From an uncultured Alphaproteobacteria bacterium (lineage in GTDB: Bacteria; Pseudomonadota; Alphaproteobacteria; Rhizobiales; Hyphomicrobiaceae): a DNA stretch of 64,000 nucleotides. The notes under the pieces are model-generated. The model saw nothing but the letters and a program-made list of their open reading frames with translations, ran no database searches and was not told the origin of the DNA. Shown here in pieces: positions 56,920 to 63,398 of this stretch; within the stretch, counting starts at the first letter, position 1; every line of letters begins with the position of its first letter. The stretch is from the NCBI GenBank assembly GCA_963840445.1, contig CAWIZC010000011.1, positions 82,841 to 146,840 of the forward strand. Direction: 5' to 3'. Made by a program: the position numbers and the translations under genes.

Positions 56920-57717
56920 CTAGCTACGTTGGCGCAGGATGGTGGGGATGATGGACACCACGAAAAACAGCGCCAGCACCAGCACGATGGACGGGCCGCC
57001 CGGCGTATCGAAGGTGACCGACGCGAACAGCCCGAGCACCACCGACAGCATGCCGAAGATGCCGGCGAACAATGCCATCTGCTCGGGCGTCTCGGATAAG
57101 GGCCGCGCGGCGGCCGCCGGCATGATCAGGAAGGCGATGGTCAGCAGGGCGCCGACGATTTTGATGGCGATGGCCACCACCAGCGCCAGCGCCAGCACGA
57201 ACACCAGCTTCAGCTTCTCGATGGGCAGGCCCTCTGCGGCCGCCAGGTCCTCGTGGACGCTGAGCGACAGCAGCGGACGCCACACGAAGGTCAGCGCCAC
57301 CAGCGCCGCCGCACCGCCGAACACGATCCAGCGCAGATCGCCGACGGTGATTGCAAATATGTCACCGAACAGAAACGCCATCAGGTCGATCTGCTGACCG
57401 CGCACCAGCGACGCCGCGATCACTCCAATCGCCAGCGACGCATGCGCGAGCAGGCCCAGCAGCGAATCGAACGGCACCACATGCTGCCGCCCGAGCACCA
57501 CCAGCAGCAGCGAGATCACCAGCGTGACGATCAGCACGCTGGCCGTCAGATTGAACGAGAACGCCAGGCCAAGGGCGACGCCGATCAGGCCGGCCTGTGC
57601 CACCGTCTCGCCGTAGTAGGCCATGCGGCGCCAGACCACGAAGCAGCCGAGCGGAGCAGCCACGATCGCCAGCCCAAGGCCAGCCAAAAGCGCGCGCAGC
57701 AAAAAGGGATCCGGCAC
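56920..57717 (-). CDS. znuB: zinc ABC transporter permease
   Basis: GTG start; …LGCFVVWRRMAYYGETVAQAGLIGVALG… ZnuB signature. Confidence 0.85.
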   Translation of the reverse strand: MPDPFLLRALLAGLGLAIVAAPLGCFVVWRRMAYYGETVAQAGLIGVALGLAFSFNLTASVLIVTLVISLLLVVLGRQHVVPFDSLLGLLAHASLAIGVIAASLVRGQQIDLMAFLFGDIFAITVGDLRWIVFGGAAALVALTFVWRPLLSLSVHEDLAAAEGLPIEKLKLVFVLALALVVAIAIKIVGALLTIAFLIMPAAAARPLSETPEQMALFAGIFGMLSVVLGLFASVTFDTPGGPSIVLVLALFFVVSIIPTILRQRS

Positions 57718-57730
57718 ATTGGCCTCCGGG

Positions 57731-58618
57731 TCAAGTCTCGCTGCCTGAACGCGCGCCTGGGCGTGCCGGCAGCGGCTCGCCCGCCAGGTCGTGCCGGTGA
57801 TCGTGACGGTGGTGGTAGAGGCCGAAGGCGCGCGCCGCCTGCGGTCCGAACAGCCGCGCGTATTCGGGATGCTGGGCGACCGACTGCGGCACACCCGAGC
57901 AGCATACATGCCGGTTGAGGCAGAGGACGCGGTCGCTCTGCGCCATCACCACGTGCAGGTCGTGCGACACCAGCAGCACGCCGCAGCCGGTCTCCGTGCG
58001 CAGCCGCCCGATCAGCGTGTAGAGTTCGGCCTCGCCTGCGAAATCGACACCGCGCACCGGCTCATCCAGCACCAGCAGCGCCGGCGAGCGGATCAAGGCC
58101 CGCGCCAGCACCACCCGTTGCAACTCGCCGCCGGACAGCTCGGAGAGTTGCCGATCCAGCAGCGCCTCGGCGCCCACCTGCCGCAGCACGCGCTCGAGAT
58201 CCTCAAGACTTGCGCGCCGCCCCAGCTTGACGAAGCGCTCCACGGTCAGCGGAATCGCACGATCGACCTCGAAGCGCTGCGGCGCATAGCCGATCACCAG
58301 GCCCGGCTGGCGCACGATGCTGCCCCCATCGGGCCGCTCGATTCCGAGCAGCGTCCGCACCAGCGTCGTCTTGCCGGCGCCGTTGGGGCCGATCACGGTG
58401 ACGATCTCGCCGGGCCGGATGTCGATGTCGACGCGCTGCAGGATGGCCCGACCCGACCTCGTCACCTCCAGCCCGCGCGCGCTGATGAGTGCCGCCGGCT
58501 CGTGCGCGACGGCTGCGTGGTTGTGCGGGCCATGATGGTGGTGGTCATGCTCATGGCCATGATCGTGGCCGGACTGCTCGGGCCGATGGCTGCGCTCCTC
58601 GAAGGCCAAGGTCGGCAT
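57731..58618 (-). CDS. znuC: zinc ABC transporter ATP-binding protein with His-rich N-terminus
   Basis: …HDHGHEHDHHHHGPHNH…; Walker A GPNGAGKTT, signature LSGGELQR. Confidence 0.85.
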   Translation of the reverse strand: MPTLAFEERSHRPEQSGHDHGHEHDHHHHGPHNHAAVAHEPAALISARGLEVTRSGRAILQRVDIDIRPGEIVTVIGPNGAGKTTLVRTLLGIERPDGGSIVRQPGLVIGYAPQRFEVDRAIPLTVERFVKLGRRASLEDLERVLRQVGAEALLDRQLSELSGGELQRVVLARALIRSPALLVLDEPVRGVDFAGEAELYTLIGRLRTETGCGVLLVSHDLHVVMAQSDRVLCLNRHVCCSGVPQSVAQHPEYARLFGPQAARAFGLYHHRHDHRHDLAGEPLPARPGARSGSET

Positions 58619-58650
58619 GCCGGCCTCGCCCTGCACGTCGCGTCCTTCGA

Positions 58651-59151
58651 TCAAGCTGCAGCCTCCGCGCAGTTCGCGCACACGCCCCACACTTCCACCA
58701 CCGCGCTCTTGGGCGTGAACCCGGCCGACGCGGCGGCCTTGTCGATAGCGGCCAACGCCTTGGTGCCATCTACCTCGGCGATGCGCCCGCAGGTATCGCA
58801 GCTCAACACCAGATGTCGCGTGCGCACATCATGGCCGGCGTGACAGGCAAAGAACGCGTTGCGGCTCTCGAAGCGATGCACGATGCCGGCAGCCAGCAGC
58901 GCGTCGATGGCCCGGTATACGGAGATCGGCGCAAGCCGCTCGCCGCGCTCGGCGAGCTTGTCCAGAACCTGGTAAGCTCCGATCGCCCGATGCGAGGAGG
59001 CGATTTCCCCGAACACCGCCCGCCGCAGCGGCGTCAGCTTCAAACCTTTGTCATCGAACGCCTTGCGCGCCCGCAGCATGGCCTCCTCGAGGCAGCGATC
59101 GTGGTCGTGCTCGGGCGCCGGGAAGGCGTCGGGGGGGTGGGTTTGTGTCAT
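58651..59151 (-). CDS. zur: zinc uptake regulator (Fur family)
   Basis: 166 aa; DNA-binding helix …LTPLRRAVFGEIASSHRAIGAYQVL…; CxxC…CxxC zinc sites (CDTCG…CANC). Confidence 0.8.
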   Translation of the reverse strand: MTQTHPPDAFPAPEHDHDRCLEEAMLRARKAFDDKGLKLTPLRRAVFGEIASSHRAIGAYQVLDKLAERGERLAPISVYRAIDALLAAGIVHRFESRNAFFACHAGHDVRTRHLVLSCDTCGRIAEVDGTKALAAIDKAAASAGFTPKSAVVEVWGVCANCAEAAA

Positions 59152-59307
59152 TTTCGCACTTATAGCACCGGCTGGCCGGCACGCCAGGCGCCACGGTCGG
59201 CAGCCGGATTTCGCCATGATCCTGTGGTGTCAGAGATATGGGTCCTTTCTGGCGCAGCAGGCGGAACTGCGACCATTCGAGCCAACCCGCCGCGGATGCA
59301 TGCGGAT

Positions 59308-60480
59308 ATGACCTCGGCCACTGCCTTGGGATCATCATATTTGATTGCGGCACGCCGGACGGCCCTCGGCCGGCCGGGCGGCCTGCATCGCAGCCGGCGG
59401 CTGGAGGACCTGACAGCCCCGGTTCTGCTCGCAGCCCTGCAGGACGCACAGATTGAGCCGCGCGTGGTCGAGGAGATTATCCTCGGCAACACCACCGCAG
59501 GCTGCAACCCTGCCCGTCTGGTCGGCCTGGCCGCCGGGCTGCGCGAGGGCGTGCCCGGGCTCACCGTCGACCGTCAATGCGCCTCGGGCCTCGACGCCAT
59601 CCTGTTCGCCATGCGCGCGGTGGCGATCGGCCAAGCCGACGTGATGGTCGCGGGCGGCGCCGAATCCGTGTCGACCGCGCCCTGGCGCGTGGCCAAGCCC
59701 AAGAACCTGTTCCAGACGCCGCGTTTCATCGGCCTCGAGCAGGACGATCTCGATACGGCCGACACCTCCCAGACGGTAGCCGCCTCGGAGGAGCTGGCGC
59801 GCCGCCTCGGCATCACCCGCGACCAGCAGGACAATTACGCGCTGCACTCCTTCCTGAAGGCCGAGACCGCGCAGGCCGAGCGCCGCTTCGTCGGCGAGAT
59901 CGTGCCCCTGAAGATGGCCGGTGCCGAAGCCCGCGATGAGCATACGGTCACGCCCGAGATCGACGAGCTGTCCGCGCTCGCCCCGCTGGCAGGCCCCGAC
60001 GGCACGCTGACCAGCGGCAACACCAGCGCCATCCAGGATGGCGCTGCCATCGCCGTGATCGTCTCGGAGCGCAAGCATCGCGAGCTGGGCGCGCCGCGCG
60101 GTCTGCGGCTGATGGCCAGCGCCACCGAAGGCGTCGCGCCCGGCGATGATGCGCGTGCGCCGGTCTCGGCACTCGAGAAATTGCTCAAGACAGCCAACGG
60201 TGTTATCGGCGGCCGGCTCGGCCTTGTCGAGCTGTCGGAGGCCTCCGCCGCTCAGGCCCTGGCGCTCCGCAACACCTTCGAGCTGGACGACGGCGAGTTG
60301 AACCCGGATGGCGGCGCGGTGGCGCGCGGCTATCCGCTCGGAGCCTCGAGCGCCGTCAGCGTCGTGCGGCTGTTCACGCGCCTGGTGCGCTGCGCCGTGC
60401 GCCCCAAACAGACCTTCGGCGCCGTCACTCAGGGCGCCGTCGGCGGCCTCGGCGTCGCCGCGCTGTTCGAGGCGGTCTAG
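59308..60480 (+). CDS. thiolase-family acetyl-CoA acyltransferase-like protein
   Basis: …YLIAARRTALGRPGG…VDRQCASGLDAILFA… active-site Cys; C-terminal …GGLGVAALFE; start may be ATG 59296. Confidence 0.7.
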   Translation: MTSATALGSSYLIAARRTALGRPGGLHRSRRLEDLTAPVLLAALQDAQIEPRVVEEIILGNTTAGCNPARLVGLAAGLREGVPGLTVDRQCASGLDAILFAMRAVAIGQADVMVAGGAESVSTAPWRVAKPKNLFQTPRFIGLEQDDLDTADTSQTVAASEELARRLGITRDQQDNYALHSFLKAETAQAERRFVGEIVPLKMAGAEARDEHTVTPEIDELSALAPLAGPDGTLTSGNTSAIQDGAAIAVIVSERKHRELGAPRGLRLMASATEGVAPGDDARAPVSALEKLLKTANGVIGGRLGLVELSEASAAQALALRNTFELDDGELNPDGGAVARGYPLGASSAVSVVRLFTRLVRCAVRPKQTFGAVTQGAVGGLGVAALFEAV

Positions 60481-60663
60481 ATTCTGTTGCCGCGAAGTTA
60501 CCCTCATTCAATTGATATCTCGCATCGCCGACATCTTCGTGTCCTACGCAGCGCTCAGCGTAAAGAACAGCCGCGCCGTCAATTGACAACACCGCCGGAT
60601 TTGACGATCCATGTGCCCTGGCGTCTCGCCCTTCTACGTCTGCTGTCGATCCTGCGGCAGAAT
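60481..60663 (+). ncRNA. candidate retron msr/msd non-coding RNA (putative a1/a2 inverted repeats)
   Basis: ATTCTGTTGCCGC (60481-60493) imperfectly complementary to GCGGCAGAAT (60654-60663); internal hairpins TACGC-AGCGCTCA-GCGTA (60565-60582); located immediately 5' of the RT gene on the same strand. Confidence 0.3.
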
Positions 60664-60724
60664 AACAAATGCTCTCTTTCGCCGGGGGCAGGCCCCCAGG
60701 CGCTAATAAGGTACGAGGGGCGGG

Positions 60725-62371
60725 ATGCCTGTCGCCGAGAGCCAGGCCGGGGTGAGTGGCGGTCTACGACTGTCCGGGCGGCCGCTGCAGTCTGCGGAAG
60801 ATGTCGCCAAATTCTTCACTGTTCCGCTGGCCCAGCTTCTCTGGACGCTCTATCGCGCCCCCGCCGACACGCGCTATCGGCACTTCGAGATACCCAAGCG
60901 CTCCGGCGGCATGCGCCAGATTCATGCTCCGATCGGCCTCGTCCGTGATCTGCAGGATCGCCTCCACCTCGAGTTGAAGCCGCTCTACCGCGCGCATCCG
61001 AACGCGCACGGCTTTATCGACGGCCGCAGCGTCGCCAGCAATGCGGCCGACCACGCCGGCAAGCGCTGGGTCCTCAACGTCGATCTGGAGGATTTCTTCC
61101 CGAGCATCAACTTCGGCCGTGTGCGAGGGCTGCTGATGCGACCGCCCTTCGAATTGGGTCTGCCCGCAGCGGCGATGTGCGCGCAGATCGCCACCTATCG
61201 CAACGGCCTGCCGCAGGGCGCTCCGACCTCGCCCGTGCTTTCCAATTTCATCGCCGCCACCCTCGACCGGCGCCTGCTGCGGCTCGCCCGTGAGCACAAG
61301 CTCACCTACTCGCGCTATGCCGATGACATCACGTTCTCGACCGATCTGCCGCAGTTTCCTCCGAGCATCGCCGTGCACGAGCAGATCGAGGGAGGAGGTT
61401 TGCGAGTAGCAGCCGGCGAGGCGCTGGAACAGACGATCCGGGCTTGCGGCTTCTCGATCAACGCCAAGAAGGTTCGCATCCAGGGACGCGGCGTGCATCA
61501 GAGCGTGACCGGGCTCTGCGTCAACACCCGGGTCAACATCGAGCGCCAGCGCGTCCGGCGCATCCGCGCCATGCTGCACGCCTGGGGGAAGTTCGGCCTT
61601 GCCAAGGCTGCGGCCGAGCACATGGACAAGTACAGAAGCCCGGGCAGGCGGCCCCGGCACGACGATCACGGCAAGGCCTTCAGGAACATCGTCTACGGCC
61701 ATCTTTCATTCGTGAAGATGGTGCGTGGCCCGGCCGATCCCGTCTATTTGAAGCTCTGCAGCAAGGTGCTCGATCTCGACCCCAACCCGTCCAAGTTCAT
61801 CCGCCAGATGGTGTTCGGCGCCGACGACTACGACATCTTCATCAGCCATGCGAGCGAGGATCGGGCTGCAATTGCGAGGCCCATCTTCGAGGCCTGCGAG
61901 CGGCTGAAGCTCAAAGCGTTCCTCGATGAGGAGCATATCGCCTGGGGCGAGATCTTCACCAAGAAGATCAACATGGCACTTGGCGCCGCGCGTACGGTGC
62001 TGGCCGTCATCTCCAGTACATCGGTCGCCAAGGAATGGCCGCTGACGGAAGTGAACACGGCGCTGACGCTCGAGGTGTCGGGCGATAAGACCGTCGTGCC
62101 GCTGATCATCGGCAAGCCGGACTTGAGCAGGTTGCCCCTCATCCGCGGCAAAGACTATCTCGTGTGGAAGGACGACCCGCTGAGCGTTGCGCTGAAGTTG
62201 CGCGAGGTCGTCGCCCGGCAGAGCGGCGCCCAGGATGGAGCGCACCCCGGCCGGTCCACCGGTAGCGTCCCGACCGTCGCCGTCCCGGCGCAGGTGCGCC
62301 CCCGGGCAGATCGGCCGCCCGCAGATCAACCGCGTTCGTGGCTGCAGAAAATCTTTCGCAAGCCCGATTGA
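60725..62371 (+). CDS. retron-type reverse transcriptase fused to C-terminal TIR domain (RT-TIR, putative anti-phage defence effector)
   Basis: RT motifs: …RHFEIPKRSGGMRQIHAP (1/2), HGFIDGRSVASNAADH (retron NAxxH), LNVDLEDFFPSI (A), LPQGAPTSPVLSN (B'), YSRYADDITFS (C), RGVHQSVTGLCVN (retron VTG); C-terminal …DIFISHASEDRAAIARPIFEACERLKLKAFLDE…VLAVISSTSVAKEWPLTEV… TIR fold pattern. Confidence 0.85.
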   Translation: MPVAESQAGVSGGLRLSGRPLQSAEDVAKFFTVPLAQLLWTLYRAPADTRYRHFEIPKRSGGMRQIHAPIGLVRDLQDRLHLELKPLYRAHPNAHGFIDGRSVASNAADHAGKRWVLNVDLEDFFPSINFGRVRGLLMRPPFELGLPAAAMCAQIATYRNGLPQGAPTSPVLSNFIAATLDRRLLRLAREHKLTYSRYADDITFSTDLPQFPPSIAVHEQIEGGGLRVAAGEALEQTIRACGFSINAKKVRIQGRGVHQSVTGLCVNTRVNIERQRVRRIRAMLHAWGKFGLAKAAAEHMDKYRSPGRRPRHDDHGKAFRNIVYGHLSFVKMVRGPADPVYLKLCSKVLDLDPNPSKFIRQMVFGADDYDIFISHASEDRAAIARPIFEACERLKLKAFLDEEHIAWGEIFTKKINMALGAARTVLAVISSTSVAKEWPLTEVNTALTLEVSGDKTVVPLIIGKPDLSRLPLIRGKDYLVWKDDPLSVALKLREVVARQSGAQDGAHPGRSTGSVPTVAVPAQVRPRADRPPADQPRSWLQKIFRKPD

Positions 62372-62393
62372 GCGCCGGTGCCGCAGACCGCGG

Positions 62394-63398
62394 CTACCAG
62401 ATGCGTTCGATCGGAACCACTTTCTTCTCGCGCACGGAGCGGATCGCCGCCTCGGCGACAGCCTGCGCCCTCAGGCCGTCCCCGAGAGTGGCATAGGCAG
62501 CGTCGCGCTTGCCGATTGCAGCCAGAAACGCGTCGAGTTCGGCCTCATAGGTCGGGCCGAAACGCTCATACCATCCCCCGTGCAGGCCGTCCTCGATGAC
62601 ACGCCCTTCTTTGTAAAGCGAGACGGCCTGTTGGCGCTGGCGCCGCGATACCAGCATCCCCTCGGATCCGAATACTTCAATCATCTCCTCATAGCCGAAG
62701 GCCGTCCTGCGACTGAAGCTGAACGTGGCAATGGCCCGGCTGTCGAAGCGTAGAGTGAGGGCGGCGGTATCGAGATCGCCGTAGTCGGCATAGCCTGGAT
62801 CGATCAGGCAATCGCCGGCGGCAAACACTTCGACGGGCTCGGCACCTGCCATCCAGGCGGCCAGATCATAGTGATGCGAGCCCTTCTCGCGCAGCATGCC
62901 GCCCGAGAACCGGACAGTGGCCGGCGGCGGAGGGGGAGCCTGCGTCCGCGAGACGATGTGGATCATCTCGACCTTGCCAATCTCGCCGGCGCGAATGCGG
63001 TCGTGCACGGCGCGGTGGCTGGTATCGTAGCGACGATTGAAGGCGGTCGCGGCGACCAGCCCGGCCGCAGCAGCGGCATCGACACAGCGCTTGGCGTCAC
63101 CCAGATCGTCGGCGATCGGTTTCTCGCACAGAACAGGCTTCCTCGCGGCTATCACCGCCGAGAGATGCGCACAGTGCGCCGATGTCGAGGACGCGACGAT
63201 TACGGCATCGACCGCCTTATCCTCGAGCGCCGTCGCGACGTCGGAGGCGGCCCGCCCGCCATGGGCGCGGCAGAGCGCTTGCGCACGCTCGACATCCTGA
63301 TCGACCACGTATCTGAGTTCGCACCCGGGATGAGCAGCGACGTTACGAGCGTGCACGCGTCCGATCGTTCCAGCACCGAGGAGAGCGATGCCGATCAC
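62394..63398 (-). CDS. Gfo/Idh/MocA family oxidoreductase
   Basis: MIGIALLGAGTIGRVHARNVAAHPG… Rossmann N-terminus; …EKPIADDLGDAKR…. Confidence 0.8.
   Translation of the reverse strand: MIGIALLGAGTIGRVHARNVAAHPGCELRYVVDQDVERAQALCRAHGGRAASDVATALEDKAVDAVIVASSTSAHCAHLSAVIAARKPVLCEKPIADDLGDAKRCVDAAAAAGLVAATAFNRRYDTSHRAVHDRIRAGEIGKVEMIHIVSRTQAPPPPPATVRFSGGMLREKGSHHYDLAAWMAGAEPVEVFAAGDCLIDPGYADYGDLDTAALTLRFDSRAIATFSFSRRTAFGYEEMIEVFGSEGMLVSRRQRQQAVSLYKEGRVIEDGLHGGWYERFGPTYEAELDAFLAAIGKRDAAYATLGDGLRAQAVAEAAIRSVREKKVVPIERIW

What the first reader, a model, noticed from the sequence alone, without database searches (positions are those of the whole stretch)
60481..62371. Retron-type reverse transcriptase fused to a TIR domain, with a candidate upstream msr/msd
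One 548-aa gene combines a full retron-class RT with a C-terminal TIR domain. The RT carries motifs 1-2 (FEIPKRSGGMRQI), NAxxH (SNAADH), YADD and the retron-specific VTG (QSVTGLCVN). The TIR region (DIFISHASEDRAAIA…VLAVISSTSVAKEW…) is followed by a Pro/Arg-rich tail. TIR domains in bacterial defence systems act as NAD+-depleting abortive-infection effectors. Retrons with a TIR effector, encoded separately or fused, are a recognised class, so this looks like a self-contained retron defence module. It is wedged between housekeeping-like genes (a thiolase and a Gfo/Idh/MocA pair). The 245-nt leader has no ORF. It begins right after the thiolase stop and holds an imperfect a1/a2 inverted-repeat pair (60481-60493 vs 60654-60663) plus internal hairpins, as expected for an msr/msd template. 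A hairpin (GGGGGCAGGCCCCC) and an RBS (GAGGGG-N6-ATG) precede the RT start. No accessory gene is apparent, so the fused TIR would be the sole effector. This architecture is not commonly described in Bradyrhizobiaceae.
Basis: partly seen in the sequence, partly recalled or inferred. Interest (0 to 1): 0.85.

Follow-up and report, generated by a model that had tools for sequence, protein, structure and literature searches.

The report
Type XII retron (RT-TIR) with its RNA

Summary
The 548-aa ORF at 60725-62371 is real. It is a full-length match to the retron type XII / "Retron-TIR" family (PADLOC RT-TIR_XII, E 4e-153; Pfam RVT_1 plus TIR_2). YADD, VTG and the TIR catalytic Glu (E442) are invariant in relatives. 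This class has been known since 2020 and is common in alphaproteobacterial MAGs, so the protein is a new member of a known kind.

The proposed a1 (60481-60493) is not conserved, and its "a2" is the 3' arm of a conserved hairpin. The real RNA element is 60620-60729:
- a1 (60620-60634) pairs with a2 (60715-729).
- One unpaired G lies at 60638.
- A 23-nt hairpin P1 spans 60639-661.
- P2 (60676-711), the likely msd template, forms a hairpin in every locus although its sequence differs.

Covariation support is strong: 97% of cells paired, 13 of 15 a1/a2 pairs with compensatory changes, and a CM hit of 115 bits. A conserved TTGAC lies 35-39 nt upstream.

One feature is new. The a2 arm contains the Shine-Dalgarno sequence and the start codon of the RT-TIR gene. 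The reference classification lists the type XII ncRNA as "nd". msDNA synthesis, NADase activity and phage defence are inferred, not shown.

The parts
60583..60588 (+). Putative -35 box TTGACA, within CAATTGACAAC, of the retron promoter. It would place the transcription start near 60618-60621.
   Evidence: TTGAC lies 35-39 nt upstream of the first a1 base in about 17 of 23 loci and within 31-42 nt in 19, in otherwise unconserved sequence. CAATTGACAAC is invariant in the 5 closest loci while the sequence 5' of it diverges. No -10 box passes the strict sigma-70 scan, so the promoter is an inference.
60620..60729 (+). Retron non-coding RNA (msr-msd), 110 nt.
   Evidence: Conserved at 73-91% nucleotide identity in about 25 loci whose RT-TIR proteins are 56-80% identical. 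Covariance model R1 hits only this site in the 64-kb window (115.4 bits, E 9e-33). Minimum free energy -57 kcal/mol, z = -4.46. No Rfam family matches.
60620..60634 (+). a1, the 5' arm of the closing helix. It may extend through UAC at 60635-60637.
   Evidence: RNAalifold pairs it with 60715-60729. Column 19/119 shows C:G in 13 sequences and U:A in 9. In the 32-sequence alignment, 13 of 15 pairs carry changes on both sides. The arms are fully compensated in L021, L024, L086, L096 and L050.
60638..60638 (+). Candidate branching (priming) guanosine.
   Evidence: It is the only unpaired base between the a1/a2 helix and P1 in the minimum-free-energy fold. It is invariant in the 22 alphaproteobacterial loci. 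Its position corresponds to rG15 of Eco2 (PMC12405507). It is not conserved at this position in L021 and L024, so the assignment is tentative.
60639..60661 (+). P1, the msr stem-loop: 8 bp plus the 7-nt loop CGAUCCU. This is the likely RT recognition hairpin.
   Evidence: 100% of cells pair. Two positions show compensatory changes (U:A to C:G in 7-11 sequences; C:G to U:A in 4-5). The loop GAUCCU is invariant. P1 alone is found upstream of distant clade-8 RT genes, such as cyanobacterial loci. It has the same 23-nt size as the Eco2 stem-loop rG20-rU42 (PMC12405507).
60662..60675 (+). A-rich single-stranded linker, consensus AAyAAcAAAUGUC. This is the probable region where reverse transcription ends.
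   Evidence: Sequence is conserved. The function is inferred by analogy with Eco2 ssRb and the RNA-DNA duplex region (PMC12405507).
60676..60711 (+). P2, a hairpin of variable sequence and conserved structure. Its base is CUUU/AAGG and its apex is CGCC-GGGGG-CAGG-CCCCC-A-GGCG at 60680-60702. This is the candidate msd template.
   Evidence: All 22 loci fold this segment into a 9-15 bp hairpin although the sequences are unrelated. The base helix is predicted by RNAalifold. The segment is longer, by 40-65 nt of insert, in distant relatives.
60715..60729 (+). a2, the 3' arm of the closing helix. It contains the Shine-Dalgarno sequence GAGGGG (60715-60720) and the RT-TIR start codon ATG (60725-60727).
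   Evidence: The ATG and GAGGG are invariant in 22 loci. In L021, L050, L096 and L100 a TTG start lies inside or directly after a2; it is the only candidate in L021 and L050.
60725..62371 (+). RT-TIR gene, 548 aa. The retron RT covers about residues 20-358 (YADD at nt 61316-61327), the TIR about residues 369-500 (nt 61829-62224; Glu442 at nt 62048-62050), and the Pro-rich linker plus conserved tail residues 501-548 (nt 62225-62368).
   Evidence: PADLOC RT-TIR_XII, 4e-153, residues 20-495. NCBIfam NF042941, 558.7 bits. Pfam. Best solved-structure match is retron Eco2. The TIR matches AbTIR, TcpB and PdTIR with the Glu aligned. Catalytic residues are invariant in 23 homologues.

Best explanation
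The locus is a complete retron of type XII ("Retron-TIR"): one promoter, one 110-nt non-coding RNA (60620-60729) and one RT-TIR protein (60725-62371).

The RNA folds so that its 5' end (a1) pairs with its 3' end (a2). This closes a junction that carries a conserved 23-nt hairpin (P1, the likely RT handle) and a hairpin of variable sequence (P2).

By analogy with other retrons, especially Eco2/Ec67, which has the closest RT, the proposed mechanism is:
- The RT binds P1.
- It primes from the 2'-OH of a guanosine next to a1 (candidate G60638).
- It copies P2 into a short msDNA hairpin, roughly 40-50 nt.
- The RT-TIR/msDNA complex keeps the TIR domain silent.
- Phage interference with the msDNA frees the TIR domains to assemble and destroy NAD+ (catalytic Glu442), which aborts the infection.

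Because a2 contains the Shine-Dalgarno sequence and the start codon, a folded RNA molecule should be poorly translated. This would tie the dose of the toxic RT-TIR protein to its own RNA.

Shown here: the domain architecture, the conserved catalytic residues, the covariation-supported RNA structure, and the absence of any partner gene.
Inferred: transcription start, msDNA synthesis, branch site, NADase activity, trigger, translational coupling and phage defence.
For: Protein:
- Full-length match to RT-TIR_XII (4e-153) and to NF042941 Retron_TIR_antiphage (558.7 bits).
- RVT_1 plus TIR_2.
- The next-best PADLOC models are the other clade-8 fusions, types XI and I-C.
- The top solved-structure matches are retron Eco2, 9lm3 and 9i2f (E about 1e-24).
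- The TIR domain matches the NADases AbTIR, TcpB and PdTIR (E 3e-13 to 1e-9), with the catalytic Glu aligned to E442.
- YADD, VTG, FISHA and E442 are invariant in 23 homologues.

RNA:
- The conserved block lies immediately 5' of the ATG.
- RNAalifold finds a1/a2, P1 and the P2 base on its own.
- 97.1% of cells pair, against 46-55% when partners are slid, and 0 of 500 shuffles reach the observed covariation.
- On 32 sequences, 17 of 27 pairs have double changes, including 13 of 15 in a1/a2.
- P2 forms a hairpin in 22 of 22 loci with unrelated sequences.
- The covariance model finds the element upstream of RT-TIR genes that were not used to build it, down to 41% protein identity.
- The fold has z = -4.46.
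- TTGAC lies at -35 relative to a1.
- The layout matches the Eco2 ncRNA: a1, a branch G, a 23-nt stem-loop, a linker, then a single msd hairpin (PMC12405507).

Context and literature:
- No neighbouring gene is conserved across 29 loci.
- Retron-TIR from Shigella dysenteriae defends E. coli against phage (Gao 2020, as cited in PMC7736814 and in bioRxiv 10.1101/2022.06.09.495361).
Against: - No experiment on this locus or on its alphaproteobacterial clade is available.
- The NCBIfam equivalog score is below its curated cut-off (558.7 vs 600).
- No Rfam retron family matches. The covariance model built here does not significantly detect the Eco2 ncRNA (6.8 bits), so the likeness to Eco2 is one of layout, not of sequence.
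- The candidate branching G is replaced by A in L021 and L024.
- P2 would give an unusually short msDNA.
- The promoter has no recognisable -10 box.
- The A3 alignment was fitted to the model, which favours the structure. A2, made by MAFFT, was not.
- Type VI retrons show that a retron may make no msDNA until it is triggered (bioRxiv 10.1101/2025.10.22.683967).
Confidence: 0.7

Rival explanations
1. The conserved upstream element is mainly a cis-regulatory 5' leader. It would bind the RT and shut off translation by locking the Shine-Dalgarno sequence and the AUG into the a1/a2 helix. It would not be reverse-transcribed constitutively, so either no msDNA is made or it is made only after a phage trigger, as in type VI retrons.
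For: - a2 contains the Shine-Dalgarno sequence and the start codon in all 22 alphaproteobacterial loci and in L021, L050, L096 and L100.
- P2 is short.
- The candidate branch G is not universal.
- There is a precedent for msDNA-dependent translational control in type VI retrons (bioRxiv 10.1101/2025.10.22.683967).
Against: - The layout matches the msDNA-producing Eco2 ncRNA (PMC12405507), and the RT is closest to Eco2.
- A hairpin with conserved structure but free sequence is typical of an msd template, not of a protein-binding operator.
- In L024 and L113 the a1/a2 helix is kept although the start codon lies 16-18 nt downstream, so the helix is not maintained only to hide the start site.
- RT catalytic residues are invariant.
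Confidence: 0.15
2. The TIR domain is a signal generator, as in Thoeris ThsB, which makes a cyclic ADP-ribose isomer. It would not itself be an NAD+-depleting killer, and a separate effector encoded elsewhere would execute the response.
For: - There is a weak NCBIfam hit to a Thoeris type III protein (19.4 bits).
- The closest solved TIR, AbTIR, also makes cyclic ADPR isomers; this point rests on my own knowledge.
Against: - No partner gene is conserved next to the retron in 29 loci.
- The Thoeris hit is far below its cut-off (19 vs 220 bits).
- The Retron-TIR system is described as working from a single gene in E. coli (PADLOC labels it 'single gene'; Gao 2020 as cited in PMC7736814).
Confidence: 0.08
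3. One reading: the msr/msd fills the whole 245-nt leader, with a1 at 60481-60493 and a2 at 60654-60663.
For: A 6+4 bp complementarity with a 3-nt bulge does exist in the sequence.
Against: - 60481-60578 is not conserved in any relative, including L161 at 94% protein identity, where a Sod_Cu gene occupies that side.
- This a1 lies upstream of the conserved -35 box.
- 60654-60663 is the 3' arm of the covarying hairpin P1.
- The pair is absent from the fold of the leader, whose z-score is -0.09, and is not reported by the repeat finder.
Confidence: 0.02
4. The element is a domesticated or decaying retron with no defence role, inherited vertically among housekeeping genes.
For: - It sits between metabolic genes with no mobility genes nearby.
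- It has the same znuC-zur-thiolase neighbours in L002 and L161.
Against: - The ORF is intact and all catalytic motifs of both domains are invariant.
- The ncRNA is under structural selection.
- The genomic context differs in L162 and most other loci, which implies movement over longer times.
- The RT-TIR protein has diverged faster than the adjacent thiolase (about 79-84% vs 91% identity in L002), as expected for a defence gene.
Confidence: 0.05

Closest known systems
Retron type XII / Retron-TIR (Mestre et al. 2020, PMC7736814; Gao et al. 2020, Shigella dysenteriae NCTC2966)
   Same: - A retron clade-8 RT fused at its C-terminus to a TIR_2 domain, working as a single gene.
- Full-length HMM match (PADLOC RT-TIR_XII 4e-153; NCBIfam NF042941 over residues 23-489).
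   Different: - The score is below the NCBIfam equivalog cut-off (558.7 vs 600).
- Identity to gammaproteobacterial and rhizobial members is only 34-41%.
- This clade has an extra roughly 50-residue Pro-rich linker and a conserved C-terminal W-L-x-R-I-F tail.
- The reference classification lists the type XII ncRNA as 'nd'; here one is defined.
Retron Eco2 / Ec67 (type I-C, RT-Toprim; PDB 9lm3, 9i2f)
   Same: - It is the closest solved structure (E about 1e-24, 26% identity).
- It is also a single fusion protein plus an ncRNA.
- The ncRNA layout is the same: a1/a2, a branch G next to a1, one 23-nt msr stem-loop with a 7-nt loop, a linker, and one msd hairpin (PMC12405507; the Ec67 sequence was verified in E. 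coli genomes).
   Different: - The effector is a Toprim RNase, not a TIR domain.
- The msd is 67 nt, against roughly 40-50 nt inferred here.
- The Eco2 a2 ends 38 nt before the start codon, whereas here a2 contains the Shine-Dalgarno sequence and the ATG.
- There is no significant sequence or covariance-model similarity between the two RNAs.
Bacterial TIR NADases AbTIR / TcpB (BtpA) / PdTIR
   Same: - The TIR domain aligns over about 95 residues at E 3e-13 to 1e-9.
- It shares the FISHASED(K) motif and the catalytic Glu in W-x-x-x-E-(L/V).
   Different: Those are secreted or stand-alone virulence-type proteins. Here the TIR is the C-terminal effector of a reverse transcriptase.
Type VI retron hybrid RNA (Retron-Vpa2; bioRxiv 10.1101/2025.10.22.683967)
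   Same: A retron RNA structure that holds a translation start region, so reverse transcription and translation are coupled.
   Different: In type VI the repressed ORF is a separate small toxin and the RT belongs to another clade. Here the occluded start belongs to the RT-TIR gene itself, and the coupling has not been tested.

Membership tests
Retron type XII (RT-TIR) | Retron-class reverse transcriptase with an RT palm (YxDD) and the retron-specific NAxxH and VTG motifs | tested here: met
   RVT_1 at 4e-23. SNAADH, YADD and SVTGL are present and invariant in 23 homologues. 71 PADLOC retron RT models match.
Retron type XII (RT-TIR) | C-terminal TIR_2 domain fused to the RT in one polypeptide | tested here: met
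   TIR_2 at 2e-16 over residues 371-471. The RT-TIR_XII model is matched end to end (13-475 of 478).
Retron type XII (RT-TIR) | RT belongs to Mestre clade 8, shared with types I-C and XI | tested here: met
   The best PADLOC models after XII are XI and I-C (1e-114 to 1e-75). The closest structure is Eco2, type I-C. No phylogenetic tree was built.
Retron type XII (RT-TIR) | Score above the curated NCBIfam equivalog threshold (NF042941) | tested here: not met
   558.7 bits against a cut-off of 600. This is a divergent subfamily, so NCBI's rule would not name it automatically.
Retron (general) | Adjacent ncRNA with terminal inverted repeats a1/a2, msr hairpin(s) and an msd stem-loop, on the same strand and 5' of the RT | tested here: met
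   The element at 60620-60729 is supported by RNAalifold, covariation counts, per-sequence P2 folds and covariance-model searches.
Retron (general) | Production of msDNA joined by a 2'-5' bond to a branching guanosine | not testable with these tools
   Only a candidate G (60638) can be named. It is not conserved in L021 and L024.
Retron (general) | Match to a curated Rfam retron RNA family | tested here: not met
   No retron family appears even at E <= 10 in 59500-63000.
Retron type XII (RT-TIR) | Anti-phage (abortive infection) activity | not testable with these tools
   Known only for the Shigella homologue (Gao 2020, as cited in PMC7736814 and 10.1101/2022.06.09.495361).
TIR NADase | TIR fold with the conserved catalytic glutamate | tested here: met
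   phmmer matches AbTIR 7uxr and 8g83, TcpB 4lqc and PdTIR 3h16, with the Glu aligned. E442 is invariant. AlphaFold gives alternating beta-alpha elements at pLDDT 80-94 over most of residues 371-500. NADase activity itself was not testable.
Retron type I-C (Eco2-like RT-Toprim) | C-terminal Toprim nuclease domain | tested here: not met
   PADLOC I-C models align only to the RT part (residues 21-373). Pfam finds a TIR domain and no Toprim domain.
Thoeris | TIR protein (ThsB) encoded next to a ThsA-type effector | tested here: not met
   No neighbouring gene is conserved. The Thoeris hit is 19.4 bits against a cut-off of 220.

The most novel reading that the evidence does not exclude
In type XII retrons the a1/a2 stem of the ncRNA also acts as a translational gate. 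The Shine-Dalgarno sequence and the start codon of the RT-TIR toxin gene lie inside a2. Each transcript would then be either folded, bound and reverse-transcribed, or translated, but not both. This would autoregulate the dose of the self-toxic RT-TIR protein against its own RNA and msDNA, and could link phage-induced loss of the msDNA complex to a burst of new effector synthesis. It would also be the first defined ncRNA for type XII, which the reference classification lists as 'nd'.
Probability: 0.3. Interest if true: 0.6.

Novelty: new member of a known kind. Interest (0 to 1): 0.35.

Why it matters
The protein adds nothing new in kind. Retron-TIR has been a catalogued defence system since 2020.

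The comparative work does give three useful results:
- It provides a covariation-supported structure and exact boundaries for the ncRNA of a type XII retron. The standard classification left this RNA undetermined, and it is needed to reconstitute or engineer these compact single-protein retrons.
- It shows that the RNA shares its layout with the structurally solved Eco2 retron. That makes an msDNA-caged effector a testable model for a TIR NADase.
- It shows that the translation start of the RT-TIR gene is built into the a2 arm across the family. This suggests a simple autoregulatory circuit for a toxic single-gene system.

Tried and rejected
- Rfam scan of 59500-63000 at E <= 10 gave only chance hits and no retron family.
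- The strict sigma-70 scan found no promoter. Only a conserved -35 box is supported.
- An exact-sequence look-up of the window protein found no record, so the source organism stays unidentified.
- The metagenome scan returned mostly distant RTs and added only two close loci.
- Covariance model R1 with filters off found nothing convincing upstream of the gammaproteobacterial RT-TIR genes L025-L029 and L035. It gave only weak hits in the rhizobial-type loci L096 and L050. It did not significantly detect the Ec67 ncRNA.
- The Foldseek search of the full model was dominated by RT hits and gave no information on the TIR fold. The TIR domain was checked by sequence against the PDB instead.
- The hydrophobic moment of the C-terminal tail is high (mean 0.76) but not above composition-matched shuffles, so an amphipathic membrane helix remains only a lead.
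- I considered P2 as an intrinsic terminator or attenuator and rejected this, because no U-tract follows it and it lies inside the a1/a2-closed junction.
- I considered an accessory gene and rejected this, because the best-conserved neighbour occurs in only 5 of 29 loci.
Full report
**Observation.** The ORF 60725..62371 (+) is present and encodes 548 aa. Pfam finds RVT_1 (4e-23, residues 56-252) and TIR_2 (2e-16, residues 371-471). The flanking genes are a thiolase (59299-60480, same strand) and two convergent Gfo/Idh/MocA ORFs. A znuB-znuC-zur cluster lies further upstream. The hairpin GGGGGCAGGCCCCC (60684-60697) and GAGGGG (60715-60720) also exist, although the spacer to the ATG is 4 nt rather than 6.

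**What the protein is.** PADLOC's two RT-TIR_XII models match end to end (E 4e-153). The other clade-8 fusions come next: RT-Protease_XI and RT-Toprim_I-C, which match over the RT part only. NCBIfam's "TIR domain-containing anti-phage reverse transcriptase" (NF042941) matches residues 23-489 at 558.7 bits, just under its cut-off of 600. An AlphaFold model (pLDDT 70.9, with the RT and TIR cores mostly 80-94) finds retron Eco2/Ec67 as the best solved structure, at E about 1e-24. The TIR segment alone matches the bacterial NADases AbTIR, TcpB/BtpA and PdTIR (E 3e-13 to 1e-9). Their catalytic Glu aligns to E442 in WPLTEVNTAL. In 23 homologues of 59-94% identity, YADD, VTG, FISHA, E442 and many other positions are invariant.

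The family is large. All 120 best database clusters carry RVT plus TIR at 59% identity or more. They come mainly from Hyphomicrobiaceae, Hyphomonadaceae, Caulobacterales and unclassified alphaproteobacterial MAGs. This is retron type XII as defined by Mestre et al. 2020 (PMC7736814), the "Retron-TIR" shown by Gao et al. 2020 to protect E. coli (cited in PMC7736814 and in 10.1101/2022.06.09.495361).

- The whole 244-nt leader folds no better than shuffled sequence (z = -0.09).
- The proposed a1/a2 (60481-60493 / 60654-60663) is a 6+4 bp match with a bulge. Neither repeat finder nor the fold recovers it.
- Its a1 lies in sequence that no relative conserves. In L161, at 94% protein identity, a Sod_Cu-domain gene occupies that side.

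**The RNA: what is there.** A blastn of the upstream region against 80 homologous loci showed that only window positions about 60620-60730 are conserved. Identity there is 73-91% in loci whose proteins are 56-80% identical. Alignment of 22 loci (A2) and RNAalifold give the following layout:

| Element | Coordinates | Notes |
|---|---|---|
| a1 | 60620-60634 | pairs with a2 |
| a2 | 60715-60729 | contains GAGGGG and the ATG |
| P1 | 60639-60661 | 8-bp hairpin, invariant loop GAUCCU |
| Linker | 60662-60675 | A-rich |
| P2 | 60676-60711 | base CUUU/AAGG; inner stem differs completely between loci |

P2 forms a 9-15 bp hairpin in all 22 loci.

Pair counts on the MAFFT alignment:
- 97.1% of cells are paired, against 46-55% when partners are slid.
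- 25 cells have changes on both sides.
- 0 of 500 shuffles reach the observed covariation.
- One a1/a2 position switches cleanly between C:G (13 loci) and U:A (9 loci).

A covariance model built from A2 hits the window only at 60614-60738 (115 bits, E 9e-33). It also finds the element upstream of RT-TIR genes that were not used to build it:
- L020, L031, L081 and L082 at more than 100 bits
- L018 at 74 bits
- L021 (Thiodiazotropha, 48% protein identity) at 64 bits
- L024 (Sulfurimonas, 41%) at 34 bits
- L086, L113 and L100
- weak hits in the rhizobial-type loci L096 and L050

In those distant hits the a1 and a2 sequences are entirely different yet complementary. On the 32-sequence model alignment, 13 of 15 a1/a2 pairs show compensatory changes. 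That alignment is fitted to the model, which favours the structure. P1 alone is recognisable upstream of many distant clade-8 RT genes.

The 110-nt element folds at -57 kcal/mol (z = -4.46, 0 of 200 shuffles fold as well). G60638 is the single unpaired base between the a1/a2 helix and P1.

**Promoter.** TTGAC sits 35-39 nt upstream of the first a1 base in about 17 of 23 loci, and within 31-42 nt in 19. CAATTGACAAC (60580-60590) is invariant in the five closest loci, while the sequence 5' of it diverges. This puts the transcription start at about 60618-60621, at the 5' end of a1. No -10 box passes a strict scan, so the promoter is an inference.

**Comparison with Eco2.** I recalled the Ec67 msr-msd sequence from memory. 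It proved 100% identical to 14 E. coli genomes at the Ec67 RT locus. Its numbering matches the published structure: a1 to A14, branch rG15, 4-nt ssRa, a 23-nt stem-loop G20-U42, 9-nt ssRb, then the template, with a 67-nt msd hairpin (PMC12405507, PMC12916289). The window element has the same order and the same 23-nt hairpin with a 7-nt loop, but a much shorter msd candidate. It shows no significant covariance-model similarity to Eco2 (6.8 bits).

In Eco2 the a2 arm ends 38 nt before the real start codon. PGAP's CDS there is over-extended across the ncRNA. In the window and all 22 alphaproteobacterial relatives, a2 contains both the Shine-Dalgarno sequence and the ATG. In L021, L050, L096 and L100 a TTG start lies inside or directly after a2, with GAGGG inside it; that TTG is the only candidate in L021 and L050. 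In L024 and L113 the start lies 16-18 nt downstream.

**Context.** L002 (RT-TIR about 79-84% identical over different spans, thiolase 91%) and L161 (RT-TIR 94%) share the zur-thiolase side. L162 (81%) and most other loci have unrelated neighbours. No neighbouring gene is shared by more than 5 of 29 loci. The system is therefore the ncRNA plus one protein.

**Mechanism (inferred).** The RT binds P1, primes from a G next to a1 (candidate 60638) and copies P2 into a short msDNA. As in Eco2, where the msDNA scaffold cages the Toprim domains until a phage nuclease degrades it (PMC12916289), the msDNA complex would keep the TIR domain inactive until phage interference. The TIR domain would then deplete NAD+ through E442. 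The start site inside a2 suggests that folded or bound RNA is not translated. That would be a plausible autoregulatory device, with a precedent of a different kind in type VI retrons (10.1101/2025.10.22.683967).

**Verdict.** This analysis adds a well-supported ncRNA model for a retron type whose RNA is listed as "nd" in the reference classification, and the finding that the translation start lies inside a2. I rate it a new member of a known kind, with interest 0.35.

Noticed in passing
window 62225-62368 (residues 501-548): The alphaproteobacterial RT-TIR proteins end in a variable Pro/Ala-rich linker followed by a conserved C-terminal motif, [S/G]-W-[L/F]-x-[R/K]-[L/I/M]-[F/L/M]-x-R (SWLQKIFRK in the window). 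Gammaproteobacterial and rhizobial RT-TIRs stop near the residue-497 equivalent. The hydrophobic pattern i, i+1, i+4, i+5 recalls, from memory only, the MinD-type membrane-targeting helix. The hydrophobic moment averages 0.76 but is not above shuffles.
   Followed up: partly
L023 2590-2721 and 2793-2921: Two tandem copies of the ncRNA element (73 and 103 bits) lie upstream of a single RT-TIR gene in a Hyphomonadaceae MAG.
   Followed up: no
L161 2478-3575, compared with window 60481-60580: The closest relative (94% RT-TIR identity) has a 365-aa gene with a Sod_Cu domain between the thiolase and the retron. The window lacks it, so the retron's 5' flank varies by insertion or deletion.
   Followed up: partly
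L008, L010, L012, L013 (for example L010 1606-2799 and 4688-5851): In a Caulobacterales/Hyphomonadaceae subclade the retron sits between two paralogous acyl-CoA dehydrogenase genes. In the window a thiolase is the neighbour, and an enoyl-CoA hydratase lies nearby in L162. The retron therefore repeatedly sits next to fatty-acid oxidation genes.
   Followed up: partly
L163 2490-4430 (E. coli NZ_CP045712.1): The RefSeq/PGAP CDS for the Ec67 retron RT is over-extended at its 5' end and covers the whole Ec67 msr-msd (2501-2632). The real start is the ATG at 2671.
   Followed up: yes
L086 445-5193 and 5268-5430: An ncRNA-like hit (40 bits) lies just downstream of a 1582-aa ORF that contains the RT-like region. 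This is an unusual arrangement and was not examined further.
   Followed up: no
window 60508-60515 and 60579-60586: The palindrome TCAATTGA occurs twice. The second copy overlaps the conserved -35 region CAATTGACAAC, so it could be an operator. This was not tested.
   Followed up: no
window 56920-59217: A zinc-uptake cluster lies upstream of the thiolase on the minus strand: an ABC-3 permease, an ABC ATPase and a Fur-family (Zur-like) regulator. It is syntenic in L002, where apparent frameshifts suggest long-read sequencing errors.
   Followed up: partly
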